Part shown: positions 2,401 to 55,651 of the stretch, piece after piece
How the letters are laid out: every line of letters starts with the position of its first letter
How positions within the stretch are numbered: the first letter of the stretch is position 1
Source: Malacoraja senta
Lineage: Eukaryota
Length of the DNA stretch: 64,000 nt
Direction of reading: 5' to 3'
Assembly: GCA_038087875.1 (NCBI GenBank)
Contig: CM075989.1
Span: forward strand, 10,728,001-10,792,000
The notes under the pieces: model-generated
Seen by the model: the letters and a program-made list of their open reading frames with translations, nothing else
Told to the model about the DNA's origin: nothing
Databases searched by the model: none
Made by a program: the position numbers and the translations under genes

Positions 2401-2457
2401 GGAAAATATTTATTCCTCGACAATAATTGAAAATGCTAAATTATCTGGTTATTGTCA

Positions 2458-2632
2458 CAAAAGGACACAAAGTGCTGGAGTAATTCAGAGGGTCAGGCAG
2501 CATCTCTGGAGAACATGGAAAGGTGACGTTTTGGGTCGGGACTTTTCTTAAGAGCATTCTTCCTGACCCACTGTTACTACAGCACTTTGTGTCTTTTTTT
2601 GCAAACCAGCATCTGCAGTTCCTTGTTTCTAT
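2458..2632. mobile_element. Fold-back PLE terminal-repeat derivative
   Basis: Inverted arms of the PLE 3' repeat; TSD TGGTT(A/G)TTGTCA at 2446-2457 / 2633-2644. Confidence 0.75.
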
Positions 2633-3134
2633 TGGTTGTTGTCATACACTGTGGGAGCTTACAGTGTGGAAACTAAGGTTTGCTTATATTGTAACCACAT
2701 TTTATATAGTTTCATACTTCCTGTTGTGGAGAAGGAGGTTGTTCCACCACTGAGCCTATGCTGTTACTCAGAGCGATGCTATTAATCCGATACCTCCCTT
2801 TATTTCCATCTAACATATTCTCTCAGGCGTATCTATTAACATCTCCGATTCTTCCACTAGCCATCTACAATTGGGATAATTTACAGTTTCTAATTAACCT
2901 TTCAACATGTCTTTGGGAAGTGGGAGAAAGCTGGAGTACTCAGCCGGCCATGGGGAGAACATATAAACTCCTCTCAGCACTTCTCAAAGGTTGGAATTGA
3001 ACCTGGGTCATTTGAGCTGTAAGAGAGCTGCACTCCATGGATATCAACTGTTCTCTCCTTCAAAATAACGCCAGTGGCTACAAAGTACTTTGGTGCGGAA
3101 TGAGAGTGTAAAAAGGTTCTATGTTACATTCTCA

Positions 3135-3401
3135 CAGTGCGACCAGATAAATGTCCGTGCCACGTCCATGCGATCAGCGATCACCTGTACACTAGTTCCA
3201 TCCGACACAATTTACAGAAGCCAATTAACCTACCAACCTGCACATCTTTGGATGTGTGGGAGGAAACCGGTGCACCCGGAGAAAACCTACGCGGTCGCAT
3301 GGAGAACGTACAAACTCCGTACAGACAGCACCCATAGTCAGGATCAAACCCAGGTCTCTGGTGCTGTAAGGCAGCAACTTTACCGCTGCGACACTGTGCC
3401 C
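3135..3401 (-). mobile_element. HE1-type V-SINE
   Basis: Reverse complement of the HE1 head, V-domain and tail. Confidence 0.85.
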
Positions 3402-4118
3402 TTTGTTGTGTAACTCCAAATTGTCCTGCTCCACCTTTGGTTTTGTGCCCTCAGCTGCAAGGCCTTCATCTATGGAATTCTCTCCCAATCCTCTCCCTCT
3501 GCCTGCCTTTCTGCCTCTTCCCCTTTAAGGTGCTGCTGCAAACATCTCTCAAGAGCCAGACCTGACTGGGTAAATAGCAGTTGAAATGTCCTGACCTAAA
3601 AACGTGTTGCATCAGCACTCGTGCTGTTGAGCCACTCACTAATGCACAACATACTGTAAAATAAACAGGAGATATAAGAGCTTTGCAAGCAATGTAAAAC
3701 TTTGAGAATAACTCCCAACACAAAGATAAGCTTTGTGTTTCCATTGCAGCCTGAGCTTTGATTGTACGTGCAATGACCTGTGTAAATCACACAATGGCTT
3801 TATCTCTTTCCCTCTGCACCTGAGACTTCACAGAAACGCTTTGTTCTCAGTAAACACTGGAGATAGTTTGGCTCCTAATCTGTGGTTTCAGGCAGCACGA
3901 TTAACTCAGTTAATCTAAATGCCACCAGGAGAGTTGTGTAGACCCGGCAAAGAGTGCAATCAAGGGAGGTCGAGCAGCCAAACACTGTACAGTGCACCTG
4001 CTTGAATTGGAGCTGCTAACATTGACAGCTGTAAATTCATCTGCCATCCAGTGTCCGTTTCCACGTGCATCCATTCCTGCCCTTGCCCCTTCGCTCTCAC
4101 GCAATTGTCAGAATGTTT

Positions 4119-4201
4119 GAAGAAGGGTCTCGACCCGAAACGTCACCCATTCCTTCTCTCCAGAGATGCTGCCTGTCACGCTGAGTTACTCCAACATTTT
4201 G
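4119..4201 (+). mobile_element. Short PLE terminal-repeat insertion with hammerhead-like core
   Basis: GAAGAAGGGTCTCGACCCGAAACGTCACC...; 13-bp TSD TGTCAGAATGTTT at 4106-4118 / 4202-4214. Confidence 0.8.
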
Positions 4202-4748: not shown

Positions 4749-6603
4749 CTATGTCCAGCATCTGTGAGGTTTTTACTTTCTTTTCCCAGCATTGATTAGA
4801 TGGGTGGATTGGCCAGTTTGTTTACTGTATATTCAGTGTGGTGATCTAACTACTGCCCTGTTTTTGATGGTGCTGAATGTTTACAGTTAAAACTTTACTC
4901 TTAGGCATTAAGATATCAGTAATTTCAAAACGCTTTGTGCCATTTCCCGAGACGGCAGCCACTGTGACTTATGGATTATTATATTGGTGTCACGTGATTA
5001 TTGCATAAATGAATTCCTTCTTGGGCCAACGTTTAGCCAAGGCAGTTTTTGAGATGGGGAAGATGGGGAGAGAAAAGGAAATTAAATATCCTGCCATGTC
5101 TGGGTTAAAAAACAAGTGAGGCTTCATGTTGAGTCTTGAAGTTTCCAGAGTGGTTCAGTAATGTGCTTATGCAAGCAGAGAGAAGCTTACCGAGCGCTCT
5201 GATCTGTTCAGCAGGCTGTGGGAATGAGCTGAGAATTTAATCAGCGATTAATTTTATCATATTGACTCTGCAACATGTCAACATTAGCTCTGTCAACAAT
5301 GAAAGAGTTGCTATTTGCACAATCAACACAGACGCCAATAGCACAAAGAACTGGAGGTCACAGGGAGGGGGCAAAGGGGGAGGTTTTATTACAGGATCGC
5401 TGAACAAAAGGAATAGGGTGAAGTGCGGGCAGATGGGCTTGGGCATCATTCATACTCGATTATAAAAATGAACGGGCACAGCACACATCGTGGTTGGCAT
5501 GTAATTAGGTTCTTGCTCTTGCTGTGTTTGTTTAATGGGCAGGTGGACCCTCACTGCCTGTGGAAATATTGACCTACATTGCTGCTATTTAGCAAGCACG
5601 GCTCCCCTTCTCTTTAAGCCGTCTCTCTGTTTCTGCGGCAGTGGCCAATTGGGGAGCTATGGGGCAACAGATGCTTGGATGGTGGGGAGCTTCTTCTGGT
5701 GTTTGCAGTGTGCTCCTGGTCAATGAGATTGCGGTTCTCAATATCACCCTTGAACACCCCTTCTGAGCATTGAAGGTATCAGAGGAGGTGAGACATTTAA
5801 TCATGGGCCTTTTGAAAGCATTCACGAAACATTTTTTCCTTCCACCTGAGGAACAATCTCTTGCCATGCCAGGGCTCAGTCCATTTCGGGAGCCAGGTGG
5901 TGGGGACGTGAACAAAGTGGGCAGCTGAGTACGATTAGTACCTCTGTGCTGGCGGGACTGGTCTGGGAAAGGTCACTGACATTGCTTACAACAACCATCG
6001 AGTGTTTGTTGGCACACACACCACCAGGCCTCACAGCCTTGCCAATGGAACACTCGCTAATGAGAGATTAAAGGCTTTCTTATCAGTTTGCCTTTGTTCT
6101 TGCTGAAGGAGGCTGCTTTCCCAGGGCCCTGCCGTTAATATTTATTTGGGCCTGCAGCAGTTTGCTGTTGCTCAGGCGTCACCATAACGGCTCCCTTTGA
6201 CAGGTTGTTTGCTTACATTCCCCGTCCAAAGATTAGATGTGAATGAGTACCTCGGAGTCCGAGCTCTCCCTTATGACATTGAAGGAGGCCATTTGGCCCA
6301 TTGAGTCTGTGCCAGTTTTCAGAGCAACTCTACCGCTGCGCCACCGTGGCTGGCGTATCTCAGTGGGTTCATCTTCCATCTTCCCTCCTTCTTCTGGCTT
6401 CATAGTCTGCAACTCCTCAAACCTCGCTTCTACTTAGCGTTCATATTTCTGGCCTTTGTCTCAAAACATCTCAATCCCTCTCGTCTTTTTTGACAGGCAG
6501 ATGATTGGAACAAAAGGCCAGAGATTGCCCGCCACAGTTTGTCCTTCCTCTCCCTTTTTCCAGCTCTCTTCTCCCCCTGCCCCCTCCCCCCACCACAATC
6601 AGT

Positions 6604-6632
6604 CTGATGAAGGGTCTCGACCCGAAACGTTA
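6604..6632 (+). ncRNA. Minimal type I hammerhead ribozyme-like motif in a PLE terminal repeat (6540-6700)
   Basis: CTGATGA-A-GGGTC(TC)GACCC-GAAAC-GTTA: canonical CUGAUGA and GAAA core around a stem II. Stems I and III are minimal; activity is not shown. Confidence 0.6.
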
Positions 6633-7185
6633 CCTATCCATGTTCTCCAGAGATGCTTCCTGACCAGCTGAGTTACTCCCGCACTTTGTGTCCTTTGTGG
6701 TTTTTTACAAATCCAGTATTAGTGATGCATGTTGAACAGGACCCTGCAGTCTTCAACAATTGTGGCTTGCTGGAGCCACGTAAGGCTATTTATTACAGCC
6801 TTTGTTATCAAGAAGAGAGAGTTTTGTAACGGCCTGTTCCTGAAGAAAGCTTCCATTGGGGATGGATTGGGACAAAGATTAAACAGCCTCAGAGATTTGA
6901 AAATTTCCATTCAAAGAGTAAATTACATCATGCAGTGAACCTTTGTGGCTCTGTTGCTGATTCTGAGTTGGAGGGACTGAAATGAGACACTGATTTCTTG
7001 TAAAATCAGTGATTCAATTCACAGGCTCTCTAGTCACATATCCCAGTCAAGAGAGATCCATTTTAGCTACCAGCACATTGGGACAGTCGATGCCGATTCG
7101 GTGGGCCAAATGGCCTGTATCCGTGCTACATGGCTATGGGGGTGGAAATGACAACGATCTGAGGCACATCAGCAACAACTCACAT

Positions 7186-7810
7186 GTAGGAAGGAACTGC
7201 AGATGCTAGTTTAAACCAAAGATAGACGCGAAATGCTGGAGTAACTCAGCGGGACAGGCAGCATCTCTGGAGAGAAGGGATGGGTGACGTTTCGGGTCGA
7301 GACGCTTCTTCAGACTAGTCAGGGGAAAGTGAAACGAGAGATATAGACAGCGATATTGAGAGAGATGGGACAAATGAATGAAAGATATGCAAAACAGTAA
7401 CGATGATAAAGGAAACAGGCCATTGTTAGCTGTTTGCTAGGTGAGAACGGGAACCTGGTGCGACTTGGGTGGGGGAGGGATAGAGAGAGAGGGAGTGCAG
7501 GGGTTACTTGAAGTTAGTGTAATCAATATTCATACCACTGGGTTGTAAGCTGCCCAAGTAAAATATGAAATGCTGTTCCTCCAATTTATGATTAGCCTCA
7601 CTCTGACAATGGAGGAGGCCTAGGACAGAAAGGTCAGTGTGGGAATGGGAAGGGGAATTTAAGTGTTTGGCAAGCAGGAGATCAGGTAGGTCCAGGCAGA
7701 CTGAGCAAAGGTGTTCCGCGAAATGATCGCCCAGTCTACGTTTGGTCTCGCCGTTGTATAAGTGTCCACATCTTGAACAACGGATACAGTAGATGAGGGT
7801 GGGGGAGGTG
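7186..7810 (-). mobile_element. Penelope-like element 3' fragment (GIY-YIG endonuclease C-terminus plus terminal repeat)
   Basis: ORF 7504..7932(-) contains LIYCIRCSRCGHLYNGETKRRLGDHFAEH...GMNIDY, closely matching 53379..54107; followed by the hammerhead-bearing repeat. Confidence 0.9.
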
Positions 7811-9794
7811 AAATGTTCATTCCAAAACATAAAGTCCCAAAGTGCGACAATAGGAAGCCTTTGCCAGGCACTCCGCATCCTGTACAGAGTGGCAGCAATT
7901 AGAAAAAAGATTACTAACAGGATTATAAACAACTTTTGACTGGATTCCCAAAGCCAGATGGTTTAAGGATGCAGTGGAGTTATGTTTGGCTTGGTTACTG
8001 TGATGGGGTTGTTCAGATTGTTAACTCAATTAATCACCCGAAGAGCCCACAATGGTGTCAACCTCTCCTCCAAACAAAGTAAGATTCAGCTGATTTGTTC
8101 GATACATGAATATAAATTAACATCCTTTGCTGTCTGGAAATCAAATCAGATGCTAGAAAAATGACGTAGTTAGGAGCAGCACAGTTGCGCAGCAGGTAGA
8201 GCTGCTGCCTCACAGTGCCGGAGACCCGGGTTCGATCCTGACCTGGGCTGCTGTGTGTGTGGAATTTGCATGTTCTGCCTGTGACTGCTTGGGCTTCCTC
8301 CGTGTGCCGTTCTACCTCTTTGCCACAACGCAATATTCCTGTACACTTGAAAATCTAAGAAACTGCTGGAAATCTAAAATAAAAATAGAAAATGCTGGTG
8401 ATACTCCACAGGTCTGGCCACATCAGTGGCAGTATCTCCTTTGCTAGGGCAACCTTCCCAAGTAAAGGTGCTATGTAAATGCAAATTGTGTTTGTTGTAC
8501 CTTGATCACATGAGCTTTGACCAACGCAGTTTACTGATCGTAATTACCTTAGACTCTGTAATCAAAAAACATTTATGGCAAATTGTTTGCTTTGTATTGA
8601 ATAATCAGTTGGTCTGCCAAGCACTTCCATACCATTTGTTAATTACTGTTTCACTTTTATTGCTAAAAGCCTGTGTAGCGATATGGACAATATGAGGGTC
8701 ATAAGTTACTGTGTACACAGTGACAGACTTGTGCTCCACAGAGACTCTATTAAATCATTGTGATTAGGAGCAATGGAAAATAAGTGACAGCTTTGTTAGT
8801 CCAATTGTGTAGTGTCTATTTGCCCAAGCGCTCGGCTGTATGAACACACAGTAGTCTTTCAATGCACTGTTGAAATAGCATGATTTCTAAAACATCCGGC
8901 TCTTATTTGCAGGGAGAATATTGCCTGCACAGAAGGTGATCACATCTTTTTACCCATCTCCTGCAGGTTCAAGTAGCTTCTGGAAACAATGAACAAACCC
9001 AAGGTCCATGAGTTTCCAGCCGGGTCTGCCCAAGTCCAGCGACCGTTTTTTGATCTGAAGGAGGATCCTGACCCGAAATGTCACCTATCCACTCTTCCAG
9101 AGATGCTGCCTGACCCACTGATAGACACAAAATGCCAGAGTAACTCAGGTGACAGGCAAGCATCTCTGGAGAGAAGGAATGGGTGATGTTTCGGGTCCCG
9201 CTGAGTTACCCCAGCAATTTGTATTTTTGTAAACCAGCATCTGCAGTTTCTTATGTTGACTCTTTTTATTTACTTATTTGTTTATCCTTTTATTTGTTCA
9301 TGGGACGCAGACTTATGGGCAAGGCCAGCGTAGCTTATTGTGTGCAAACTGACGAAGGTCTACAACACCAAAGGGTCATATGTCAATTTGGACAGCAAAT
9401 TTGACCCATTTTCCCTATACACTCAGGGGCAATTTACAGACGCTGAAGAACCTCTTGGCCAACGTCTTTGTGATGTGGGAAGAAACCCACGAGGTCACAG
9501 GGAGATAATGCAAACTCCACATAGACAGCACCCGATGTCAGGAACGAACCCAGGTGTCTGTTCCTATGAGACAGTGGCTGTACTAGGTGCGCCATTGTGT
9601 TGCCTATTGATTCTGGGTCAATGTTGTTGATGTATGTTTGGAGTTGAACCTCCAAATGTCTCTGAATGGATCAGCTATCTCCCCATGGAATCTCCTTGAA
9701 CTGTTGAGATCAGTGCCTCATATGTACATTTAGAAACTCCAGCAGTTGAGAAGACAATAATTGGAAAATGTCAAATCTTCGTTCCGTAATCGAA

Positions 9795-11325: not shown

Positions 11326-12483
11326 GAACAAGGAACTGCAGCTGCTGGTTTACACAAAAGGATACAAAGTGCTGGAGTAACTCGATGGGTTAGGCAGCTT
11401 CTGTGGAGAATGTGGATAGGGGATGTTGTGGGTCTGTGCTGTCTGTGTGGAGTTTGCACGTTCTCCCTGTGATCATGTGGATTCCTTTCAACATCCCAAA
11501 AATGAGCTGATTGATATTTCAATTGGCCTCTGTAATTAAAGGTGTCCAGCATTGTTTAGAGCAGATAGTCAGAACCTTTTTCCCATGGCAGTAGTATCGA
11601 AAATAGGTGGGACTGGGATTAAGTTAAGAGGAAATTGTTGTAAAGAGGATTTGAGAGAAAATTATTTACCCAGAGAGTAGTTGATATGTGAAACTCACTG
11701 CCAGAGTAGATGGTGGGGTTAGAAACAGTCTCTATGTTGCTGAGATATTTAGACAGACACCAAAATACACATTGCATTGAAGGATTGTACCTTGTGGGCA
11801 AATGGGCTTTATGGAAATAGCCAAAATAGTCAACATGGACATGGTGGACTGAGGGGACCGTTTCTATGGTGTATATCTCTATAGCTATGACTCTACATGT
11901 GGTGGAATCTGGTGGCAGTTGAGGGAGCTGAGGGGACAAATATAATGAGGTAAAACAGGATTAGTATAGAAATGGGTGCTGAGTGGTCAGCATGCACTTG
12001 GAGGGCCAAATAGCCTATTTCCATGCTGTATTTCTCTTTGTCTTCCACTCAAAACCTCCATGAAAACCTTTCCATTGATGATGCTTTATCTTTCTAGAGA
12101 GTGGTTGAAATCTGGAACTGGCTGCCAAAGGAAGTGGTGCCAATAAAACTGGGTACAACACCAATAATAGTTACATTAAGTGAGGTTTGCGATGTTGTCC
12201 TGAATTTAGTGACTCGTTCATGTGTGCGAGATGTGGTGTTGGTAACCTGGGGAGCTGTGTACTCTGCCGCCTCGCTGCAGGTATCTGGCCTTATTGATTC
12301 ATAGCAGCACTGAAGAAACTGTGTAATGTTGGGGATTCCACGTTCTGGATGGGACATTAAACCGAGACCTTGGCTTCTTTCTCAGCAGAATGCTGCACAA
12401 TGTCAATACCACTATTTTGAAGAGGAGTAATGGTGATCTGCCGGGGAACCTCTACATTTATCCGAGGAGCAGATGGAGCCTCT

Positions 12484-12552: not shown

Positions 12553-14759
12553 TTCAGCCTGGATTTTATACACACCCTGTGATTGAGGTGAGATCATTAC
12601 CCACGAGGTCATGACTAACCCAGTAATCTTTTCTGCTTAAGAGCCACAGACTGCTTCTTCATGAGTCTGTGACATTATGATTTGGTTGGACACAGACCTA
12701 GTGAGGCAATTACTGGTGAATTGTGATATGTGATATGCAAATTGTGGTATGCAAATGTGATACCTCCTCAGTTGCTCGCTTCCTGCGTTATGTGAATAGT
12801 GACTTCCACACAAAGCTTTCTTAACATTCAATTGGTGCATGCACCTCCAGTGCCCCAACCTTGTCAGGATGGTATGTTGATGAAGCGCGTAAGATCTCGG
12901 AGGTGAATTCTGTGAGAATAGGAATCGATGTTGGTTCGAGTCGAAACCCTTCTTCAGACAGAGTCAGAGGAGAAGGAAACTAGAGGCATGAAATGGTTCA
13001 GAACAAATCAGAGCCGACACCGATGTCCAAGGAATGGTGGAGCCCACAATGGACCATTGTTGGCTGTGTAAGAGGTGATAATGAAGGGATATATGGATAC
13101 AAACAGTGGAACCAGCAGGATGGCTGGGGGTGGGGTGGTGGAGAGAGAGAGAGAGAGAGGGGGGGAGGGAATGCAATGCAGAGGTTACTTGAAACCAGGG
13201 ATGAACTGTGGTTTGCTGGTATGCCTGCCACTGGACAGTCGGGCATGAGAATGCATTCCTGCTCTGGCACTTTGATATCCACTCAGGTAACTTTCCCTGG
13301 ACTCCACCTCATCCACACCACACACGCCATTCTCCACCATGATCTTTATCTTACAGCAATCTTTGCTTTTCCCAATGATTCTCAATTCCTAACCAGTTCT
13401 TTCAGTCTTCTTCGCTGCAATAAAGTGAACTCCCCTTGGCAGCTCCGAGAAGATAGACTACCTAGAAATGGGTCCATCAACTGCCGAGCTCCCATTTATT
13501 CTCCCCATTTACAATCAATTCCCTCTGGATTCTACCACTCAACAGCACACCAGGGTATATTGATGCTGGCCATCAGAGTAAACATATAAATCCCATCCTC
13601 TCACTTTTTTCCCTGTAACTTGTTCTCTGACCCAGATCATTGAACTCCATTCTGACTCCCGTACCACTTTTAGCAGCCAGTTAACCCACTAACCTGCACG
13701 TCCCTGGGACGTGGGAGAAAAGTGGAGCACCTGGGGGAAACCCATACAATCACAGGGAATCATCACACACGCACACAGCACCCGAGGTTAAGATTGAGCC
13801 TGGGTGTCTGGAGCTGTGAGTCAACAACTAGACTAGCTACACAATAGTGCATGCTGAATGCGACTAACGTTGACTGATGCATCAGATCCTGCCCTCACTG
13901 TCGGTTGCCGTGTTTTGCGTCTCTCTGCCAACAGCTTCTCATTACCAGAGGCTCCCAGGAATGTAATTGGCAAATGTCCTCCGTCACCCATTGCCTCTGA
14001 CTGTTCGTAATGAAACACAAAATTGGAGATCTTGTTGGAGCAGAGCTCTTGATTGCTTTCCTAGCTGGAGGCTATCTTTCTGAATTGTGAGTGTGGCAGG
14101 GCCTGGGCTTGTATTGATCACAAGTCTCGAGTTCGGGATGCTGGGGTGCTCTGCACCCACTCTTTCAGCTGTGTTCTGCTACTGGTAATTGGTTTATCTC
14201 TGACAACATACAATTTGAGTTTACTGAGTGAGGTTGTTCCTGGACACACTAGTAATAACAACGTGTTTCTATAACGTGTGAATAAAAAGGATTCAAAGTA
14301 TGTGCATCACCAGAAACTGCTCATAGAATCACACAATCGGCTCACCTCATCCATGTCAAATGTGGTGCCTGTCTTCGCTAATCCCATTTGCCTGCATTAG
14401 TTCAGGATGCTTCTACACCTTTCTTTTCCAAAATACCTTTTAAACATTTGCCACCGCCACCACCTTCTCCAGCAGTTTGTTGCAGATGTTTCAACGGTTC
14501 AATAGTGCTTTATCATCACATCTGCAAAACACCGTGAAATTATTTTTCATTGCGCCAGATTTGGTGCCATTTTCAAAGTCCGACTGCGTACTAAATCTTA
14601 TGGAGCGGTGACCGATCCAGGCAACCCCAGGCTGCCTGCAGGATTTCCAGCCATCGCCTTCATCTGGATTGTTTATCAAACCGACGTCCCTTTCCTCGCC
14701 CGGCCATCTTTGAGCCTCAGAGCGCCTCCTGCAACCGACCTTGAGAGCACGGAAGGTAA

Positions 14760-15283: not shown

Positions 15284-15286
15284 TAA

Positions 15287-17243: not shown

Positions 17244-17244
<1 letters not shown>

Positions 17245-17273: not shown

Positions 17274-17274
<1 letters not shown>

Positions 17275-25325: not shown

Positions 25326-25585
25326 TTAATGAAGGAACTGCAGATGCTGGAAAATCGAAGGTACACAAAAATGCTGGAGAAACTCAGCGGGTGCAGCAGC
25401 ATCTATGGAGCGAAGGAAATAGGCAACGTTTCGGGCCGAAACCCTTCTTCAGACCCTTCAGTCTGAAGAAGGGTTTCTTCAGACCCTTCAGTCTGAAGAA
25501 GGGTTTCGGCCCGAAACGTTGCCTATTTCCTTCACTCCATAGATGCTGCTGCACCCGCTGAGTTTCTCCAGCACTTTTGTGTTAA
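25326..25585. mobile_element. Fold-back PLE terminal-repeat element with hammerhead-like cores on both strands
   Basis: Long inverted arms; core CTGAAGAAGGGTTTCGGCCCGAAACGTT at 25493-25520(+) and ~25426-25453(-); 8-bp TSD TAACAGTG at 25318-25325 / 25586-25593. Confidence 0.85.
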
Positions 25586-41559: not shown

Positions 41560-42035
41560 TTTTTAACTTTTAGAGATACAGTGTGGAAACAACCCCCTTG
41601 GCCCACCAAGTCTGCAACGACCAGCGATCACCCATACATTGGTTCTAGCCCACATTATAGGGACAATTTACAGAAGCCAACTCACCTACAAACCTGGGAT
41701 AGACACAAAAAGCTAGAGCAACTCAGCAGATCAGACAACATCTCTGGAGAAAAGGAGTAGGTGACGTTTTGAGTCGAGATCCTTCTTCAGACCCCTGACT
41801 CTCAGTCTGAACAAGGGTCTTGACCCGAAACGTCATCTATTCCTTTTCTCCAGAGATGCTGCCTGACCCGCTGAGTCACTACAGCTTTTTGTGCCTATCT
41901 TCGTTTTAAACCAGCATCTGCAGTTCCTTCCTACAAAAACTACAAACCTGCACGTCTTTGGAATGGGGGAGGAAACCGGAGCACCAGGAGAAAACCGACG
42001 CGACCACAGGGAGAAGGTACAAACTTGGTACAGTT
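41560..42035 (-). mobile_element. HE1 SINE interrupted by a fold-back PLE derivative
   Basis: HE1 sequence resumes in register after 41939. Confidence 0.85.
41697..41939. mobile_element. Fold-back PLE terminal-repeat element
   Basis: Inverted arms of ~95 bp; exact 11-bp TSD CTACAAACCTG at 41686-41696 / 41940-41950. Confidence 0.88.
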
Positions 42036-42234: not shown

Positions 42235-43150
42235 CCAAGCCAGGACTGATGATCAACGGTAGGCCCCTAAGGAGTGTAGTGGAACAGAAGGGCCCAGGAG
42301 TAATCATACATGGTTCCCTGAAGATTGACAAATTGGTGAAGAGGCTTTTGGCATGCTGGCCTTCATCAGTCAGGGCACTAACTGTAGATGGTGGGATATG
42401 AAGTGCTGGAGTACCTCAGCAGATCAGGCAGCATCTCTGAAGAACATGGATAGATGACGTTTCGGTACAAGACCCTTCAGGCTGAAGAAGGGTCCCGACC
42501 CGAAACATCATCTATCTATGTTCGCCAGAGATGTTGCCTGACCCGCTGAGTTACTTCAGCACTTGGTGTCCTTTTGTGTAATCCAGCATCTGCAGTTCCT
42601 TGTTTCTACGTGGAACTTGGGATGTTATGTTGCAGTGGTGGTGAGGCCACACTTGGAGCATTATGTTCACATTCGATCATCTTGCTATTGGAAAGATGTC
42701 ATTAAACTGGGAAGAATGCAGAATAGATTTATGAGGATATTGCCAGGACTTGAGGGTCTGAGTTGTAGGGAGAAGTTGGACAAGCTGGGACTTTATTCCT
42801 TGGAATGTAAGAGACTGAAGGGTGATCTTATACAGGTGTATAAAATCATGAGGGGCATAGATAGGGTGAATGCACAGTCTTTTACCTGAAGTTGGGGAAT
42901 CCAGACAGAGGGCATAGATTTAAAGTGTGCAGGAAATGGTTTAGTAGGAACTCGAGGGGCAACATTTTCATACAGAGGGTGGAACTAGATGAAACGAGCT
43001 GGTTGGGGCAGGTTCAATAATAACATTAAAAGAAGCTTGTACAGGTACATTGACCAAAAAGGCTTTGAGGAATATGGGATAAACGCAGGCATACCAGACA
43101 AACTTGGTTGGGCATTTTAGTTGGCATGGGCCTGTTTCAGTGTTGCTGTC
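42235..43150 (+). mobile_element. Degenerate CR1 LINE, interrupted at ~42400-42610 by a fold-back PLE derivative
   Basis: ORF 42563..42889: VRPHLEHYV...LGRMQNRFMRILPGLEGLSCREKLDKLGLYSLECKRLKGDLIQVYKIMRG. Confidence 0.85.
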
Positions 43151-44765: not shown

Positions 44766-46444
44766 CTCCCCAGAGAGTGATGACAATATAGAACTTGCTA
44801 ACACAGAAGAATGGCTCAGTTTAAAAGAGAGCAGGATAAACACAAGAAGAGGCGTGGACGGGTGTGTTGATGGAGTTGAGAGGGTGAGGATGAAGTAATA
44901 TGGGAATAGTCCTGACTATTCATTTAATTCTGTGTGCGAAGTTACAGCTTAGACATATGCCACTGTGGGAAGTACAAAGAGATATTTCTTGGGAGCCTTT
45001 TATTTGAGAGCTCAATTTTCCCCTTGTTGTTCAGTAACAAGGTTAGACCGAGACAGCTAATAAGAGCAGAGGGCACTGTTTACTTCACACACTGCATTTC
45101 TTCTACACACGACATTTCAGCTGTGGAATCAATTGAAAAAAATAGCTAGTTAATCGTCATGAGCAGCAGAACTTGTGTTGGGGTTTAATGTAGATCCAAG
45201 TATGCCAAGAGGTATTCTTGCATGCTGTCCAATTAACATGAAAATGCATTGGCGCAGTTTGGAGAACAGTTGGAATAATAGAGTCTTAACCTTCTCCGAT
45301 TCAAAGCCTAACCTCCTTGGTTCCTTGTTATGAGAGAAGGTTAGGTTTGTGTCACAGAATGTTTCCATAGCAACAGTGCTAGGCACTCAACTCACATTGC
45401 ACATTAATAGAACAACTCAAGTGACAGCATACAATTTCAAAATGACACTTTACAAATTATGTATCCATATAAAAGTTTTGAGAGAGTCTGTCATACTTCA
45501 TTTTGAATGCCTCATTCTAGATGTCACAATGATGTGTGTCAAAGGCACACATGTATATTGAAAAATAAATATACGTAGGCAGTTATATAGCGCTGTTTCT
45601 TTTTACTGACCAAGATTAAGTTTACAAGAGCTTTCTCATCTGCTGAGCCTTCCTCCCCAACACTGCAATTAAATCTTGGTGACCACAAGTTGTGAAGATT
45701 TCAGCACATTGACTTTGTCTTAAAGCCTTAGTGACAGAATTACCTAATTAGTAGAATATTACGGCTTGCTGCAAGCTTTACTACTCCAACATCACAGGGG
45801 ACTTGTTAATATATGGATTATTGACTGTAACATTTTAGAGAAAAACTACTGTTGTAACCTGCAATTTTCTGTTCTTTCCAAATTAACAACATAAGAGACT
45901 AGAGATGCTAGGATCTTGAGCAAAAACAAAGTGCTGGAGGAACTCGGGACCAGGCAGCATCGGTGAAGGGAATGGACAAACGACATTTCAGGTCGCGACC
46001 GTTTGAAACGGGGTACTGATTGGGAATGATCAGCCATGATCACATTGAATGGCGGTGCTGGCTCAAAGGGCAAACTGGCCTACTCCTGCACCTATTGCCT
46101 ATTGTCTATTGTCATTTCGCTCCACAGATGGCCCCTGACCCGCTGAAATGCTCCAGCACTTTGTTTTTTGCGAACAATTTCTATTCTTTTTTGCAAAAGA
46201 TATTTGCAACAACATCAGGTTCTCATTTTAAAGGTGTTCGTTGGTGATGTTACCACAAATAAAGAATTTATTTTTGGATAAATGAAGATACACAAATCTC
46301 CATCAAATCTATCACAATCTACAACATGTAAGTATGAGGACGTCAGACCCTCCCTTAAACCTGGCCGAAGCTCTATTTCAGTCTTATACTTTCCCCACAA
46401 TGATTGATAGAGTCTCACCTTTGAACGAGTCTGCCCTTACATGT

Positions 46445-46652
46445 GTAAGAAGGAACTGTAGATGCTGGTTTAAACCGAAGATAGACATAAAAGCTGGAGT
46501 AACTCAGCGGGTCAGGCAGCATCTCTGGAGAGAAGGAATGGATGACGTTTCGGGTCGAGACCCTTCTTCAGACTCGAAACGTCACCCATTCCTTCTCTCC
46601 AGAGATGCTGCCTGTCCCGCTGAGTTACTCCAGCTTTTTGTGTCTATCTTCA
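46445..46652. mobile_element. Fold-back PLE derivative with an intact hammerhead-like core on the minus strand
   Basis: 46543-46571(-) reads CTGAAGAAGGGTCTCGACCCGAAACGTCA; TSD GCCCTTAC(A/T)TGT at 46433-46444 / 46653-46664. Confidence 0.85.
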
Positions 46653-47105: not shown

Positions 47106-49417
47106 ACAAAATGGAGATCAATCACAAACATGTGAAAAGAAAAACTGATTCGAGAAACTAATGTATGAAAATAAGTTGATCTGTGACCACATTGACGTTC
47201 TATCTACAGGATATGGGACGCACCAGTTACTGGTGCTTCAAAGAGACCAACTACAGCCAAAGTACATCCACCTATTGTTAACTGAATGAGACAATAGCAG
47301 TGGGGTGGCCAAAAATTATGCTGTATGTTTTATTCATCTTTTTCCTGCCACATTTGTGAAAGTATTCTAGTCTGATCAGCATCAACTTTCCTCAAAGAGA
47401 ATCTGGTCCTTGTTAGTTTTTACAAGAGGATTTCCTGTTATGGTTTTGAAATTGTTGCAGGAACACACAGATCAAGATTTATTTATCCCTGATGTTAAGT
47501 TTAGAAACCGGATGGATTTCAGCATGGATCCATAGACCCATATGGGGAGAAAGCAGGAATGGGGTATTGATTGTGGATGACAACATTGAATGGCGGTGCT
47601 GGCTCGAGGGGCTGAATGGCCTACTCCTGCACCTATTGTCTATTGTCATTCATCAGGGATGCAATGTTGCATTGACGCAATTCGTCTCCTGCAGGGTTCT
47701 GCAGTCGCAGGTAGCAGTGACGAGTCTCGTCACTTATATAAAATGCACTCAACATAATAAACCTCCCTCAGGTGCTAGGCAGGAATGTTATCAAACAAAA
47801 TTCAACACTGAGAGACAGAGGAGATAATAAGGCAGGTGATTTACAGCTTAGTTGAAGAGTTCAGCTGAAGAGGCATCTTAAGGAAAATGAGAGAAGTGAA
47901 TAGTTTAAGGAGGGAATTCAAGAGCTTGACTTCTTGGCCAGAAGGCACAGCTGCTAGTGGTGGAATGATTAAATTAGGGAGTTTCAGGAAGCCATGAGTT
48001 GGGAAACAAAAAGTTTGACAGTGCCAGTAGAAGCTCAACGAATCAATCATGTTCATTTTTTTTCTTTTATAAATTAATTTGCAATGAGCTATTCATTCAT
48101 GCTTCTAAATCGCAAAGCAAAGAAGCTTGAACTGATCAATATTTCCTCATAGGGCAATTTCCATATCCCAGGAGTAAATGTAATGAACCTTTGCTGAATT
48201 GCCCCTGAGGCATTTATATCTTCCCTGAGCTAAGAAGATGAAACTCTTAAGTTTAACATTTTCGAGGCCAAAAAAACTGTTTGATTAGGACTTTATCAAC
48301 CATACTAAATATTGATTCCTTCCCCCACCACTGTGTTTGCAGTGTGCATCAAATACAAAATACACTGCAGATATCTGTCCAGGTCACTCTGGCAGCATCG
48401 TCCCAACCAGCAACTTCTATCATTAAGCAAAAGCAGCAGATGCATGGGTCCTGCGTCATCCTTGGGTGTAAATCCTGGATCTCGTTGTCTAATGGCATCG
48501 GGAGAGTGCTTCCACTAACATCAGCTCAGGAAGGCAGCTCACCACCATCTCCCAAGGGCAGTATGAAAACACGACCATTAGTGAGTAGAGGTAGAGGTTG
48601 GCCACTCAGCCTCTCAAATCTGCCCTGCGATTCAATGTGATCACCACTGATCAGACCCTTGCCTCAATTCTTGCCATTTCCCCATACCCTTCAATTCCCT
48701 TATGTCCATTTTCTAATCTTGCAAAAATGTACCAGTCCTCTCGTTAAATACCTCCAATGATCTGCATGGTCATGACTCAGTGATGGAGATGGAATCAGCA
48801 GTCGCTCGGCTGTCAAAACCTCTCAATCTCTTTCTGACATCTCCTCTATGGTTATAACTAGTATTCCTACCTTTCAGATTCCATCTCTCCTTGCAACATC
48901 TCATTTTGCGTCCTAATTATTTCCAGTATGTTCCCACTGACTCTCTGTGTTTCTTGTTCAAGGACATACAAGAGTTGAATGCCAACACTCATTAGTCTCA
49001 CACCATTTAAACAATTTTCTGATTTTCTAGTCATTCTAGCAAAGCTGATAACTTCGCCCACATTATGCTCCATCTGGCAGCTTTTCACCCACTCAATTAA
49101 TTTTGTGACCTCCTTGTAACTTACCATTGCACCTGTCTCTCTATCATCAGCACGCTTGAATCCAGTCTCTTCCGAAGATAGACACAAAATGCTGGAGTAA
49201 CTCAGCCGGTCAGACAGCATCTCTGGAGAAAATGAATAGATGACGTTTCGGGTCGAGCCCCGTCTTCCGACTGAGGGTCAGGGAAGAGAGAAAGTAGAGG
49301 TCACCCAGATGCTGTGGGCAAGTTTTCACTGGTGAAGACCTGAACGTGAGAGCGTAGCCTCAGGATAAAGGGATAGTCGTTGAAGATTGATGTGATCTAT
49401 GGATACTGAGTTATTTA

Positions 49418-51800: not shown

Positions 51801-52104
51801 AAAGACAATACATGATTACAATCGAGCCATCCACAGTGTACAGATACATGAGAAAGGGGATAACGTATAGTGAATGCTATTGTTGTAGAGATTTAAAAGA
51901 GTTGGGCAATTGTAATGCGTGATTGCAGATCCGCTTCTGTGGCCAGGGCTCTAAGAGTCACGGTCATCCCTTCCCATCCTACTTCCGCTGGAAAATACCA
52001 AATCCACAATTCTCACCTCCGTGTTGCAGCAGGGGAAGCTCCAATCGCACTTATTCTCCCCCCACCCTCTTCCCATTCAACAAAAAGGTAGCTGTGCTGT
52101 GAAT

Positions 52105-52670
52105 ACAGGCCGACCCTCCAGTGCAGAGTGGAGCAATGTTGGAGGTGTTCAAGAAGGAACTGCAGATGTTGGAGAATCGAAGGTAGACAAAATTGCTGGA
52201 GAAACTCAGCGGGTGCGGCAGCATCTATGGAGCGAAGGAAATAGGCAACGTTTCGGCCCGAAACCCTTCTTCAGACTGAAACTCAGCGGGTGCGGCAGCA
52301 TCTATGGAGCGAAGGTCTGAGGAAGGGTTTCGGCCCGAAACGTTGCCTCTTTCCTTCGCTCCATAGATGCTGCCGCACCCGCTGAGTTTCTCCAGCAATT
52401 TTGTCTACCTGCAATGTTGGAGGTGCCTCTTACAGGTGAGACATTAAACAAAATCCCTTTCTGCTCCTGTGGATGTGTGTTCAGGTTCACTATGGCACTA
52501 TTTCCTAGGAACAGCAAGTTCTCTATCTTGCCCCGGACAATATTTATTTCTCCCGTGAATGAAGCTAAAATAAAAATTGCTGTGGGATTTGTTGGGCATG
52601 CTGTATCTTTCACACTTGGGATGTCTTCAAAGGGATATGACAGGAGCTATAGAAATGTGCGTCTTTTTAC
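52105..52670 (+). mobile_element. Old Deu-domain SINE interrupted by a fold-back element
   Basis: TGTTGGAGGTGCC...GAGACATTAAAC...ATGGCACTATT...ACAATATTTAT resembles the Deu domain. Confidence 0.55.
52148..52410. mobile_element. Fold-back PLE terminal-repeat element
   Basis: Core CTGAGGAAGGGTTTCGGCCCGAAACGTT at 52317-52344; exact 15-bp TSD GCAATGTTGGAGGTG at 52133-52147 / 52411-52425. Confidence 0.9.
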
Positions 52671-53270
52671 TGGAGCAGAGGAAAAGGAGCTGTTTAACAT
52701 TCAGTAATGGCTGGCTGCCTTGGCTTGTCAGATGTCCCCTGAGTGGCCATTGCAGCTTGTTCTCAATATAATCTTTCCATTGTTATCATGTCAGACTTAT
52801 AAAGCAGTTGAGCTTTTCCAATTCAGAGCATCATTAGCCAGGGACCCTGCGTTACGAGTGTGTTGTATAATTTAACACCAGCAGGTCTCCAAAAAAGCAT
52901 GAAGGCTGATTATGTGCAGATTACGATGAGTTTGATCAAAGCTGCCAGGAAGAAAGAATTGATTTCCATTAGTCCTCGTGTAATATGCCGCCACCTCCGG
53001 TCACTTTTGTTCTTTTACACCGACAGAATTAAACCTCTTTGAGTTACGGCACATTTTTCTGCATGGATTCAGAATGTTAATTAGTGTGTCTGGTTTTAAA
53101 GGTGAATTATTGCCGGGTTGGGCACGCAGGTCTGGTTATAAGAATTTTTTATTTTGTTTCCAATCTAATATCAGGGGTTTTCAAATGGAATACAGAATTG
53201 TTGATTGACTGCATTTTAAATGAGCTGTGACAGAACATGTTTAGAACGCAATGCATATTGTTGGCAATTC

Positions 53271-54310
53271 TAGACTACACTTCTTCCCACCCTGCTTCCT
53301 GTAAAGACTATCCCCTACTCCCAATTCCTCCGTCTACGCCGCATCTGCGCCCAGGAAGAGGTCTTCCATACTAGATCATTGGAGATGTCCTCGTTCTTTA
53401 GGAAGCGGGGGTTCCCCTCTTCCATTACAGATGAGGCTCTCACTAGGGTCTCCCCGATATCCCGCAGCTCCGCTCTTGCTCCCCCTCCCCCCATTCGCAA
53501 CAAGGACAGAGTCCCCCTTGTCCTCACCTTCCACCCCATCAGCCGTCTCATACAGCATATAATCCTCCAACACTTTCACCACCTCCAACGGGATCCCACT
53601 ACTGGCCACATCTTCCCATCTCCACCTCTTTCTGCTTTCCACAACTCCCTGGTCAACTTGTCCGTTCCCACCCAAACCACCCCCTCCCCAGGTACATTCC
53701 CCTGCAACCGCAGGAGATGCAACACCTGTCCCTTTACCTCCCCCCTCGACTCCATCCAAGGAGCCCAACAGTCTTTTCAGGTGAGCCAGAGGTTCCCTTG
53801 CACCTCCTCCAACCTCATCTACTGTATCCGCTGTTCCAGGTGTCAACATCTGTACATCGGCGAGACCAAGCGCAGGCTCAGCGATCGTTTCGCTGAACAC
53901 CTCCGCTCAGTCTGCCTTAACCTACCTGATCTCCCGGTTGCTCAGCACTTTATCTCCCCCTCCCATTCCCAATCTGACCTTTCAGTCCTGGGCCTCCTCC
54001 ATTGTCAGCATGAGGCCCAGCGCAAATTGAAGGAACAGCACCTTATATTTCGCTTGGGTAGCTTACACCCCAGCGGTATGAACATTGATTTCTCTAACAT
54101 CAAATAGCCCTTGCTTTCCCTCTCTCTCCATCCCTTTCCGCCTCCCAGTTCTCCCACCAATCCTACTGACTCCGACTACACTCTATCTCTGTTCCGCCCA
54201 CTCCCCTGACATCAGTCTGAAGAAGGGTCTTGACCCGAAACATCACCCTTTCCTTCTCTCCAAAGATGCTGCCTGTCCCGCTGAGTTACTCCAGCATTTT
54301 GTGTCTACCC
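53271..54310 (+). mobile_element. 5'-truncated Neptune-type Penelope-like retroelement (RT thumb, Cys linker, GIY-YIG endonuclease, terminal repeat)
   Basis: LDYTSSHPASC and IPYSQFLRLRRIC upstream; ORF 53379..54107 with CNRRRCNTC linker and NLIYCIRCSRCQHLYIGETKRRLSDRFAEH; hammerhead-like core at 54217-54240. Confidence 0.9.
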
Positions 54311-55651
54311 ATTTTAATAGGTCTTTCTAATAGGAAGTTTTCCATCTATAATACCTCATGCAGATAGCAATCAACTTCCTTGGTTAAATATCTGATGTTA
54401 TTGTGCCTCGGTGGGCAGGTGTCTTATGTATGAATCAGAAAGTTGTTGGCTCAAGTCCTACTGGAAAGACTTGGACTCAAAAATGGAGGCTGACACCCGG
54501 AGTCTGTTTTCTAAGTTGGAACCCACAATACTATTTTGAAGAGGAGTTCACCTCAGTGTGCTGGGGTCAATATGTATCCTGCACCAGCGTGGGTTTTCTC
54601 CAGGTGCTCTGGCTTCCTCCCACACTCCAATGACGTACAGGTTAGTAGGTTAATTGACATCAGTATAATTGTCCCTAGTGTAGGATAATGTTAGTGTATG
54701 GGGTGATCGTTGGCTGTGTGGACTCTGTGTTTCCATGCTGTGTCTTTAAAAAGTAAAAGTTTTTTTTAAAAGTCACTGAAGCTAATTCCTGGTTGGACCC
54801 AATGTGCTGCATGTCTTGATTTCCATTTGATGGTTGGGATATGGTGGTCGAATGAATAAGTTAGTGGACAAGCATCTGGAGTCTGAAGAAGGGTCTCGAC
54901 CCCAAATGTCATCTATTCCTTTTCTCCAGATCCGCTGCCTGACCCGTTGAGTTACTCCAGCACTTTGTGTCTATGTTTGGAGCTTTGGACCATTGAACCA
55001 GAGACAAAACTCAATGCCATGGCAGCTGGGAAATATAGTTCAACTAACTAGATAAATCTGGATCTAATAAGAGCCATAGATACACAGCACAGAAATAGGC
55101 CCTTCAGCCCATTTTGTCCCTGCCAACCATCAACAATCCATTTATATTTATCCCACATTAATCCAATATGAATCTCCTCACATTCTCGCCAGATCACCCT
55201 GAATTATATCTCTCATCCACATGCTCATGGCAATTTACAGACACTTGGGATGTGAGAGGAAATTGGAGCAAGGCACTCATAATCACAGGGAGAAGTGCAA
55301 ACTCCACATTGTCAGCATCTGAGGTCAGGATAGAACCCAGATCTCTATCGGTTGTAGAAACAAGGAACTGCAGGTGCTAGTTTGCCAAGGAAATAAATAA
55401 AATGCTGGAGTAACTCAGTTGGTCTGTGGAGAATGTGGGTAGGTGACATTTTGGCTTGGGACCCGTCATCGGTCTGAAGAAGGCTCCTGACTCGAAATGT
55501 CACCTATCCCTGTTCTCCAGTGATGCTGGCTGACCCAGTATTTTGGGTCTTTCCAAATCTATCAGTTGTGCCTTTGTCCCATCACTGTGTTGCAGTGATG
55601 TGTGGTGAGGTTAATGGCTGGGGAGGCACTGGCTTCTACCCCATCCTAACT

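What the first reader, a model, noticed from the sequence alone, without database searches (positions are those of the whole stretch)
2446..55569. Family of short fold-back, hammerhead-bearing Penelope-derived elements that appear to insert as discrete units
Seen: about 30 copies (manual count) of the non-coding repeat that follows the PLE GIY-YIG stop codon at 54107. Many are ~170-260-bp head-to-head inverted pairs with no ORF. Several are bounded by their own direct repeats: 15 bp exact (52133-52147 / 52411-52425), 11 bp exact inside an HE1 SINE (41686-41696 / 41940-41950), 8 bp (25318 / 25586), and 12 bp with one mismatch (2446 / 2633, 46433 / 46653, 55344 / 55558). Single-arm copies also have TSDs (4106 / 4202, 20930 / 21047, 35655 / 35760). 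Established: PLEs have pseudo-LTRs, often inverted, that carry minimal hammerhead motifs. Inference: a high-copy non-autonomous 'ribozyme SINE' or retrozyme-like family mobilised in trans by Neptune-type PLE RT/GIY-YIG, or a stereotyped very short product of PLE integration. Arm lengths and centres differ between copies, which fits de novo fold-back formation at each insertion.
Basis: partly seen in the sequence, partly recalled or inferred. Interest (0 to 1): 0.82.

Follow-up and report, generated by a model that had tools for sequence, protein, structure and literature searches.

The report
Stub-sized fold-back Penelope retroelement insertions
The window holds about thirty 50-260-bp dead-end copies of the end module of a Penelope-like jumping gene, about a third of them mirror-image pairs, several with target duplications; this is the known insertion signature of that element class and is likely a by-product of its integration, not a separate ribozyme-driven family.

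Summary
The window has 47 matches at 31 loci to one ~100-135-bp unit. This unit is the pseudo-LTR (pLTR) of Neptune-like Penelope elements (PLEs). All nine quoted direct repeats are present. 24 of 25 uninterrupted paralogues of the host SINE-like repeat show that the 11-bp repeat at 41686/41940 is a true target duplication.

In 1.23 Mb of this genome, adjacent copies are head-to-head 91 times. The other three orientations occur 8-14 times each. Exact flanking repeats of 8 bp or more occur in 36-41% of pairs, against 2% in permuted controls. In 56 of 65 pairs one arm ends at a "short" terminus and the other carries a ~30-bp "tail".

Full-length elements show the same unit on both sides of a ~1240-codon RT/GIY-YIG ORF. 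They share the same termini, duplications and inverted arms.

This is the published PLE insertion architecture, reduced here to the pLTR alone. A self-propagating "ribozyme SINE" or retrozyme is not supported:
- centres differ between copies;
- short and ORF-linked copies share majority sequences;
- tandems are rare;
- only 5 of 269 single copies start at the predicted hammerhead cut.

Still unexplained: 29% of single copies start within 7 nt of the motif's upstream edge. Interest is moderate to low.

The parts
53274..54107 (+). 5'-truncated PLE ORF remnant (277 codons, C-terminal part with GIY-YIG endonuclease), stop TAG at 54105-54107
   Evidence: It aligns to residues 978-1249 of a full-length copy's ORF at 74% identity. 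The translation contains CNRRRCNTC and LIYCIRCSRCQHLYIG.
54108..54310 (+). ~105-nt pyrimidine-rich spacer followed by the pLTR unit (hammerhead-like boxes from 54212), ending at the 'short' terminus GTCTACC
   Evidence: model 97-220
2458..2632 (.). head-to-head pair; 12-bp duplication with one mismatch at 2446-2457 / 2633-2644; right arm carries the tail
4119..4201 (+). single arm; 13-bp exact duplication TGTCAGAATGTTT; short terminus
6594..6710 (+). unit with pyrimidine-rich spacer upstream (longer 5'-truncated PLE end)
7184..7797 (-). longer 5'-truncated PLE: ORF C-terminus (7510-7797), spacer, unit and tail (7184-7438). Used as the coordinate reference for the profile.
9050..9252 (.). complex + - + arrangement of three partial units
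11327..11434 (-). single arm with tail (model 142-252)
12914..13069 (-). spacer plus 5' part of the unit (model 5-170)
16938..17130 (.). head-to-head pair, short/tail termini
18576..18668 (-). single arm
20940..21046 (-). single arm; 10-bp exact duplication TGCCTGTCTA; short terminus
22418..22637 (+). two units in tandem (a rare arrangement)
23295..23459 (+). unit with some spacer upstream (model 92-245)
23822..23874 (-). short fragment (model 166-218)
25105..25306 (-). longer copy with spacer (model 8-224)
25326..25585 (.). head-to-head pair with a multiply switched centre; 8-bp exact duplication at 25318 / 25586; left arm carries the tail
25831..25978 (.). head-to-head pair with a very short left arm
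26615..26744 (+). single arm with tail
29523..29702 (.). head-to-head pair, tail/short termini
35359..35467 (+). single arm
35664..35759 (+). single arm; 9-bp exact duplication GGAAGCATC
40289..40583 (-). two same-strand units 43 bp apart
41697..41939 (.). head-to-head pair inserted in a SINE-like repeat; 11-bp exact duplication CTACAAACCTG; right arm carries the tail
   Evidence: 24 of 25 uninterrupted paralogues show exactly 11 nt duplicated.
42380..42605 (.). head-to-head pair
45893..46003 (-). single arm with tail
46116..46167 (+). short fragment
46445..46652 (.). head-to-head pair; 12-bp duplication with one mismatch; left arm carries the tail; arms 96% complementary
49164..49301 (-). unit with some spacer upstream
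52148..52410 (.). head-to-head pair with an extra partial arm at the centre; 15-bp exact duplication GCAATGTTGGAGGTG; left arm carries the tail; arms 95% complementary
54880..54982 (+). single arm, short terminus
55356..55557 (.). head-to-head pair; 12-bp duplication with one mismatch; left arm carries the tail
63877..63934 (+). fragment (model 113-168)

Best explanation
These are pLTR-only insertions of Penelope-like retrotransposons, as single arms or head-to-head pairs, a good share with detectable target-site duplications. They are likely abortive by-products of integration by the autonomous elements, not a self-propagating family.

Shown here:
- The unit (~100 nt to a 'short' terminus, ~135 nt with a 'tail') lies on both sides of a ~1240-codon RT/GIY-YIG ORF in full-length copies. 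The tail runs on towards the start codon.
- Short copies use the same two 3' termini as long copies.
- Short copies have 8-17-bp duplications.
- When paired, they are almost always head-to-head, with one short and one tailed terminus.

Inferred mechanism:
1. The element's endonuclease nicks both target strands a few to ~17 bp apart.
2. Reverse transcription starts inside the RNA at either of two adjacent start sites. This was shown in vitro for an Anolis PLE.
3. In paired insertions, both nicked strands probably prime, one from each site and perhaps on one RNA held by a protein dimer.
4. Both cDNAs stop within ~130 nt, often at the upstream edge of the hammerhead-like motif.
5. Their ends are joined at the centre through microhomology or template switching, which gives a new centre each time.
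6. Single arms arise when only one strand primes.
7. The copies lack whatever lies 3' of the start site, so they would be dead on arrival.

The hammerhead-like motif is carried along. Its cut site does not define the ends.
For: Identity and copy number:
- The unit matches 43 HSPs and 47 profile hits at 31 loci in the window.
- It matches 529 hits at 384 loci in 1.234 Mb.

Discrete insertion:
- All nine quoted repeats are present.
- 24 of 25 uninterrupted paralogues show an exactly 11-nt duplication at 41697-41939.
- Exact flanking repeats of >=8 bp occur in 17/47 and 12/29 pairs, and in 21/150 and 20/113 singles. Permuted controls give ~2%.

Stereotyped architecture:
- Close neighbours (gap <=20 bp) are - + 91 times, - - 14, + - 8 and + + 8.
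- One short plus one tailed terminus occurs in 56 of 65 classifiable pairs. About 50% is expected from singles (126 short, 112 tailed); p about 9e-10.

Same machinery as long copies:
- Four full-length copies have the unit plus tail ending 2 nt before the ~1240-codon open frame, and the unit again ~105 nt after the stop.
- A 2.3-kb truncated copy has a 14-bp duplication and the short terminus.
- Two long copies carry a short inverted arm at the 5' end.
- About 25-30 ORF-bearing fragments in 634 kb mostly retain only the C-terminal part of the ORF. About half keep fewer than 100 codons.

No separate lineage:
- Families A, B and C each contain spacer-linked long copies, singles and paired arms. 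In family A the three classes are similarly diverged; B and C are too few to compare.
- Majority sequences of long and short copies are the same, apart from 1-2 low-support sites.
- Inner breakpoints differ between pairs.

Literature read (passages or named sections):
- An inverted 5'-truncated copy, and a 30-40-bp tail often at one end only (Craig 2021).
- A 31-bp tail on one of the inverted pLTRs, a 9-bp duplication, palindromic junctions, head-to-head as the most frequent form, and solo pLTRs (Arkhipova 2013).
- Two internal RT start sites with the tail between them, both strands nicked and extended, a predicted dimer, and uncut RNA as the dominant template (Frangieh 2024).
- Dual minimal hammerheads 100-700 bp apart on opposite strands, ascribed to truncated PLEs (Cervera 2014).
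Against: - The 5' ends are not a smooth truncation series. 78 of 269 single copies begin within a 7-nt window (model 120-126), just upstream of the motif. Such hits have ordinary, not pyrimidine-rich, sequence upstream. A discrete end fits a defined short RNA, which a dedicated non-autonomous template could also supply.
- Short loci are estimated at about 0.6 million. The first-look candidates were only 115,513 for the ORF C-terminus and 10,738 for mid-ORF. Those figures are lower bounds, not copy numbers.
- 'Dead on arrival' rests on the template requirements of a different PLE, from Anolis and tested in vitro. It was not tested here.
- The partner arm is the best match among all arms in only 2 of 45 pairs. 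This is expected for old copies, but it does not itself prove a single event.
- Which way the inversion forms is open. Inner ends of the two arms are correlated (Spearman 0.38-0.49) and 44 of 77 centres overlap. Both facts also fit fold-back self-priming.
- No RNA evidence was obtained.
Confidence: 0.78

Rival explanations
1. A dedicated non-autonomous family ('ribozyme SINE'). A defined short RNA starts at the upstream edge of the hammerhead-like motif. It is transcribed from earlier short copies or from a few master loci, and PLE RT/EN mobilises it in trans.
For: - A sharp 5' end: 78 of 269 singles within 7 nt, confirmed by copies whose duplication abuts that end.
- Short loci far outnumber ORF-bearing ones.
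- pLTRs alone can mobilise foreign sequence in trans in a rotifer (Arkhipova 2013).
- An initiator-like TCAGTC / CTAGTC lies at the 5' edge. This is my reading; the consensus is recalled.
Against: - The majority sequences of short and spacer-linked copies are the same in families A and B.
- Every family has long copies.
- Centres of pairs differ from copy to copy.
- Copies end at the RT start site, so they lack any downstream sequence. The Anolis element needs ~50 nt past the start site.
- A test for an extra, cap-derived G at the 5' end was not significant: 4 of 11 and 3 of 11.
Confidence: 0.13
2. A retrozyme-like cycle. Tandem units are transcribed, self-cleaved by the hammerhead, circularised, and copied back into DNA.
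For: - The unit carries the minimal hammerhead boxes CUGAAGA ... GAAA ... GUC/GUU.
- Non-LTR retrozymes are reported to derive from PLE pLTRs (Li et al. 2026 preprint, abstract and Results).
Against: - Same-strand close neighbours number 22 of 121, against 91 head-to-head.
- Only 5 of 269 singles begin at the predicted cut site, model 153-158.
- No Rfam hammerhead model matches, even at E<=10.
- Helix I has only two contiguous pairs by my reading.
- The termini coincide with PLE RT start sites instead.
Confidence: 0.02
3. Solo pLTRs left by DNA-level recombination or deletion between the two pLTRs of once full-length insertions.
For: Solo pLTRs without duplications were ascribed to recombination or deletion in a rotifer. 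Many singles here have no detectable duplication.
Against: - Recombination between direct repeats cannot make head-to-head pairs with one tailed arm.
- Full-length insertions are far too rare to be the source.
- 5' ends inside the unit (85 of 269 at model 127-200) are not expected from recombination.
Confidence: 0.03

Closest known systems
Insertion units of canonical endonuclease-positive Penelope-like elements: pLTR, adjacent inverted 5'-truncated copy, one-sided 30-40-bp 'tail', variable TSD (Arkhipova et al. 2013, PMC3846280; Craig et al. 2021, PMC8557442; passages read)
   Same: Head-to-head inverted pLTRs, a tail on one arm only, duplications of about 8-17 bp, overlapping or palindromic junctions, and strong 5' truncation.
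   Different: Here both arms are truncated to the pLTR itself, with no ORF between or beside them. The form is very abundant, at roughly 300 loci per Mb. I found no paper describing this extreme in cartilaginous fishes in searches. The library is partial, and Dfam and Repbase are not on hand.
PAc (Poseidon of Anolis carolinensis) in vitro integration (Frangieh et al. 2024, PMC11167929; main text read)
   Same: Two adjacent internal start sites, with the 'tail' as the sequence between them. They lie ~70-100 nt downstream of the hammerhead cut site. HHR cleavage is not needed for insertion.
   Different: It belongs to a different clade. In PAc the start sites lie inside the ORF. Here they lie ~37-67 nt upstream of the start codon. 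The coupling of one short and one tailed end within one insertion (56 of 65) is not stated in the passages I read.
Dispersed minimal hammerhead motifs of metazoan PLEs (Cervera and De la Pena 2014, PMC4209133; parts 1-2 of 4 read)
   Same: Core boxes, an extra nucleotide before helix II, a G-C pair at the base of helix II, and a palindromic CG before U-H. Motifs occur mostly singly or as close opposite-strand pairs, which the authors ascribe to truncated PLEs.
   Different: That work did not analyse termini, duplications or tail asymmetry. No cartilaginous fish is named in the parts read.
Non-LTR retrozymes (Cervera and De la Pena 2020, PMC7229834, passages; Li et al. 2026 preprint, abstract and Results)
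   Same: Short, non-coding, hammerhead-bearing and related to PLE pLTRs.
   Different: Retrozymes are head-to-tail tandem arrays of 150-450-bp monomers. They carry canonical type I hammerheads and are expressed as circular RNAs. The copies here are dispersed singles or inverted pairs with only minimal boxes.
Twin priming of LINE-1 (recalled, no call)
   Same: Both nicked target strands prime cDNA synthesis, which gives an inversion inside one insertion bounded by a duplication.
   Different: In L1 the second primer anneals at an arbitrary internal site, so the inverted part comes from a different region. Here both arms start at the element's own start sites, which makes a true fold-back.

Membership tests
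Endonuclease-positive Penelope-like element | Single ORF with RT and C-terminal GIY-YIG endonuclease, with CCHH cysteines between GIY and YIG | tested here: met
   RVT_1 (20.2 bits) and GIY-YIG (20.4 bits) both match a 687-codon copy, and both lie below Pfam's cut-offs. LIYCIRCSRCQHLYIG is seen in the window ORF. Full-length frames span 1193-1250 codons.
Endonuclease-positive Penelope-like element | pLTRs: the same non-coding unit on both sides of the ORF, often as partial tandems | tested here: met
   The unit lies before and after the ORF in four copies. Five copies extend upstream through the spacer as partial tandems.
Endonuclease-positive Penelope-like element | Adjacent inverted 5'-truncated copy (head-to-head) | tested here: met
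   91 of 121 close neighbour pairs are - +. Two long copies carry a short inverted arm.
Endonuclease-positive Penelope-like element | [quoted passage not shown] | tested here: met
   56 of 65 pairs have one tailed and one short terminus.
Endonuclease-positive Penelope-like element | Variable-length target-site duplication | tested here: met
Neptune clade of PLEs | [quoted passage not shown] | tested here: met
   CNRRRCNTC in the window ORF. Criterion taken from Craig 2021.
Neptune clade of PLEs | Placement in an RT phylogeny with named references | not tested
   No named reference PLE proteins were fetched.
Hammerhead ribozyme (type I / minimal PLE variant) | Core boxes CUGANGA, GAAA, UH, with helix II of >=4 bp | tested here: met
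   Present in the long copies of all families. 71 of 184 copies that cover the core keep all boxes, and 43 of those keep 4 of 4 outer helix II pairs.
Hammerhead ribozyme (type I / minimal PLE variant) | Helix I of about 4-6 bp; match to a curated covariance model | tested here: not met
   By my reading, only two contiguous pairs are possible next to the core. There is no Rfam hammerhead match at gathering score, nor at E<=10 in 54100-54400.
Hammerhead ribozyme (type I / minimal PLE variant) | Self-cleavage | not testable with these tools
   Needs a transcription and cleavage assay, probably as a dimer or with the element's protein.
Non-LTR retrozyme | Head-to-tail tandem repeats of the monomer | tested here: not met
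   22 same-strand against 91 head-to-head close pairs.
Non-LTR retrozyme | Unit ends or junctions at the ribozyme cut site; circular RNA | tested here: not met
   5 of 269 singles start at model 153-158. Circular RNA could not be tested: only contigs were available and no RNA holder was listed.
SINE-like non-autonomous lineage | Own source genes, recognisable by diagnostic substitutions not shared with the autonomous partner | tested here: not met
   (families A and B). The samples are small: 13 and 10 long copies.

The most novel reading that the evidence does not exclude
The main template in vivo is a defined ~100-135-nt leader RNA that begins at the upstream edge of the hammerhead-like motif. 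A dimeric PLE ribonucleoprotein primes both nicked target strands on it, one from each of two adjacent start sites. This would explain three things together: the near-obligate pairing of one short and one tailed terminus, the correlated inner ends, and the 7-nt pile-up of 5' ends. The hammerhead would then mark or shape the leader rather than cut the template.
Probability: 0.22. Interest if true: 0.6.

Novelty: new member of a known kind. Interest (0 to 1): 0.36.

Why it matters
- The unit fills about 4.5% of the 1.23 Mb sampled, which suggests roughly 0.6 million loci genome-wide. About a quarter are ~200-bp palindromes.
- Repeat annotators will probably split or misname these copies. They can also disturb assembly and replication, or yield hairpin RNAs when transcribed.
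- For PLE biology, three figures are cheap genomic read-outs of an integration mechanism so far studied in vitro for one lizard element:
  - 56 of 65 pairs have one short and one tailed end;
  - 29% of single copies start within 7 nt of the motif's edge;
  - 2% start at the predicted ribozyme cut.
- These figures argue that uncut RNA is the template in vivo.

Tried and rejected
- **Rfam.** No family reached gathering score over the whole window. No hammerhead appeared at E<=10 in 54100-54400; only chance-level snoRNA, miRNA and lncRNA rows were listed.
- **RNA evidence.** No RNA holder was listed for the leader/ORF-start stretch. Four runs laid were contigs only. They show loose ends at the same 5' edge and at the short and tailed termini, but they cannot show RNA starts.
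- **Cap-derived extra G at the 5' end.** 4 of 11 in sample 1 and 3 of 11 in sample 2, not significant. One script error was corrected first.
- **Fold-back with the tailed arm made first.** The tailed arm reaches further 5' in 15 pairs, the short arm in 28, and they are similar in 13. The prediction is not met.
- **Head-to-head pairs with one long arm.** There is no excess of - + over + - at gaps of 81-3000 bp.
- **Near-symmetric centres away from the common 5' edge.** 7 of 28 against 4.0 expected, p=0.06.
- **Full-length 5' ends.** Of 20 further 5' regions fetched, only 4 reached the ORF start. 3 of those are partial tandems, so the RNA 5' end could not be read from them.
- **Earlier notes.** There are none for this genome and none by sequence.
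- **Clustering.** Average-linkage clustering of units resolved only two large clusters. I replaced it with assignment to three natural references.

Full report
**What is there**

The 213 nt after the ORF stop at 54107 match 43 places in the window. All share query positions ~105-200.

I built an nhmmer profile from the longest window copy (reverse complement of 7183-7440; 257 positions). Its landmarks are:
- GTCTGAAGAAG at model position 125;
- the predicted hammerhead cut after GUC at about 154/155;
- a 'short' terminus at about 215-230;
- a 'tail' terminus at about 250-256.

The profile finds 47 hits at 31 loci in the window. Printed sequences show that paired copies are head-to-head. The hammerhead-like ends meet at the centre and the 3' ends point outward.

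Six are exact and three have one mismatch in 12. The repeat finder independently returns the 15-bp and 11-bp repeats, and arms 83-96% complementary.

**Is it more than chance?**

I took two samples of the window's own genome at round coordinates:
- sample 1: the window plus 57 stretches, 634 kb;
- sample 2: 60 stretches, 600 kb.

Together they hold 529 hits at 384 loci. 98 of those loci contain an adjacent - + pair.

Orientation of close neighbours (gap <=20 bp):

| Orientation | Count |
|---|---|
| - + (head-to-head) | 91 |
| - - | 14 |
| + - | 8 |
| + + | 8 |

Exact flanking repeats of 8 bp or more at the outer boundaries:

| Class | Sample 1 | Sample 2 | Permuted control |
|---|---|---|---|
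| Pairs | 17 of 47 | 12 of 29 | about 2% |
| Singles | 21 of 150 | 20 of 113 | about 2% |

. Those repeats are 8-17 bp long.

The fold-back at 41697-41939 sits inside a SINE-like repeat. In 24 of 25 uninterrupted paralogous copies the two flanks map contiguously with exactly 11 nt shared. This is the equivalent of an empty site.

**What the unit is**

Protein searches of the genome with the window ORF and with a mid-ORF probe found many relatives, some with long open frames.

In four fetched copies with open frames of 1200-1250 codons, the unit plus tail (model 112-253 in three copies, 136-253 in the fourth) ends 2 nt before the open frame. The first ATG follows about 37 nt later. The unit recurs about 105 nt after the stop, behind a pyrimidine-rich spacer. 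The unit is therefore the pseudo-LTR, and the 'tail' is its continuation towards the ORF.

Other copies show the rest of the known repertoire:
- One copy has a 7-bp duplication. Others are partial tandems. Two carry a short inverted arm at the 5' end.
- A 2.3-kb truncated copy has a 14-bp duplication and the short terminus.
- The ORF has RT and GIY-YIG matches, both under Pfam's cut-offs.
- The translation shows cysteines between GIY and YIG, and a CX4CxxC motif upstream. Craig 2021 names this as the Neptune/Nematis mark.

**The one-sided tail**

Of 65 pairs whose two termini could be classed, 56 have one short and one tailed terminus. 6 are short/short and 3 are tail/tail.

Singles are 126 short and 112 tailed, so independent arms would give about 50% mixed pairs (p about 9e-10, and sample 1 alone). 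The two arms are therefore coupled products of one event.

**By-product or separate family?**

- About 25-30 ORF-bearing fragments lie in 634 kb. Most retain only the C-terminal part of the ORF, and about half keep fewer than 100 codons. So 5' truncation is steep.
- Three unit families (A, B, C) each contain spacer-linked long copies, singles and paired arms. In family A, median identity to the family reference is 0.86-0.88 for all three classes.
- Majority sequences of long and short copies agree over 131 positions, except 1 site in family A and 2 in family B. Each of these has support of 0.5 on the long side.
- Inner breakpoints differ from pair to pair.
- Arm-to-arm identity averages 0.815, against 0.761 between pairs. 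The partner arm is the best match in only 2 of 45 pairs, as expected for mostly old copies.
- Only 5 of 269 singles start at the predicted cut site.

These results favour abortive products of the autonomous families over a self-propagating lineage or a retrozyme cycle.

**What remains odd**

78 of 269 singles begin at model 120-126, and 108 begin at 115-126. Hits starting at 120-126 have ordinary upstream sequence. 4-6% are pyrimidine-rich, against about 4% background, so these are real ends. Copies whose duplication abuts the unit start with (C)AGTCTGAAG or nearby.

This could be the 5' end of a leader RNA. An initiator-like TCAGTC/CTAGTC sits there (the consensus is recalled). It could instead be a strong stop for the RT. 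A test for a cap-derived extra G was not significant.

How the inversion forms also remains open:
- Inner ends of the two arms are correlated (Spearman 0.49 in sample 1 and 0.38 overall).
- 44 of 77 centres overlap.
- The tailed arm is not systematically the longer one.

I commit to priming of both nicked strands from the two adjacent start sites, and I mark it as inference. Fold-back self-priming followed by endonuclease resolution is the alternative offered in the literature.

**Comparison with what is known**

- Craig 2021 and Arkhipova 2013 (passages read) describe inverted pLTRs, a 30-40-bp tail at one end, variable duplications, palindromic junctions, and head-to-head as the commonest form.
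- Frangieh 2024 (main text read) shows two internal start sites with the tail between them, nicking and extension of both strands, a predicted dimer, and uncut RNA as the template.
- Cervera 2014 (parts 1-2 read) reports minimal hammerheads in pLTRs, and close opposite-strand pairs ascribed to truncated PLEs.
- Retrozymes are tandem arrays with canonical hammerheads and circular RNAs. That definition is not met here.

Searches found no paper on pLTR-only fold-backs in cartilaginous fishes. The library is partial. bioRxiv supplements and Repbase/Dfam could not be seen.

Earlier notes of this scan on other genomes reach similar readings. They are not independent evidence. I tested the same claims here.

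**Scale**

The unit covers 56,136 of 1,234,000 sampled bases, or 4.5%. Leaving out the window, there are 353 loci in 1.17 Mb. This scales to roughly 0.6 million loci in 1.94 Gb. It is an extrapolation from a small sample at round coordinates.

**Verdict**

The structure is the known PLE insertion signature, reduced to the pLTR. The 'ribozyme SINE/retrozyme' reading is not supported. The sharp 5' end and the short/tail coupling are the parts worth following up.

Noticed in passing
G000 places listed; loci L061-L066: One PLE family looks young. All 150 scored matches to a 200-residue mid-ORF probe are 93-100% identical at protein level, and 141 of them have no stop inside the match. Open frames reach up to 1250 codons. 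This suggests recent or ongoing activity.
   Followed up: partly
window 41554-42033 (minus 41697-41939) and many sample loci: The host of the 41697 insertion is a SINE-like repeat at high density. 37 left-flank and 68 right-flank matches occur in 634 kb.
   Followed up: partly
window 30001-34000: A 4-kb block of low G+C (0.34-0.35, against 0.43-0.49 elsewhere) holds no PLE unit hits.
   Followed up: no
window 54212-54260; L061:2340-2420: The purine run GAAGAAGGG at the 5' side of the hammerhead-like core is complementary to pyrimidine tracts on both sides. One lies in the upstream spacer (CCTTTCTTC) and one just 3' of the predicted cut (CCTTCT). These alternative pairings could compete with the ribozyme fold.
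   Followed up: no
model 122-127, e.g. L061:2362-2367: TCAGTC (family B) or CTAGTC (family A) sits at the preferred 5' end of short copies and resembles an initiator element. The consensus is recalled and was not tested.
   Followed up: partly
L061:2250-3050 in runs X1-X3 and X19: Contigs of public runs labelled as several coded organisms hold the unit at >=90% likeness, at depths 100-1000 times that of the ORF start. The unit family is probably shared among related species.
   Followed up: no
L003, minus strand, 2-2282: Two long open frames with LINE-like endonuclease/RT-looking sequence lie beside the PLE copy. They were not analysed.
   Followed up: no
window 55650-55700: A (TG)n-rich microsatellite lies just after the last fold-back.
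   Followed up: no
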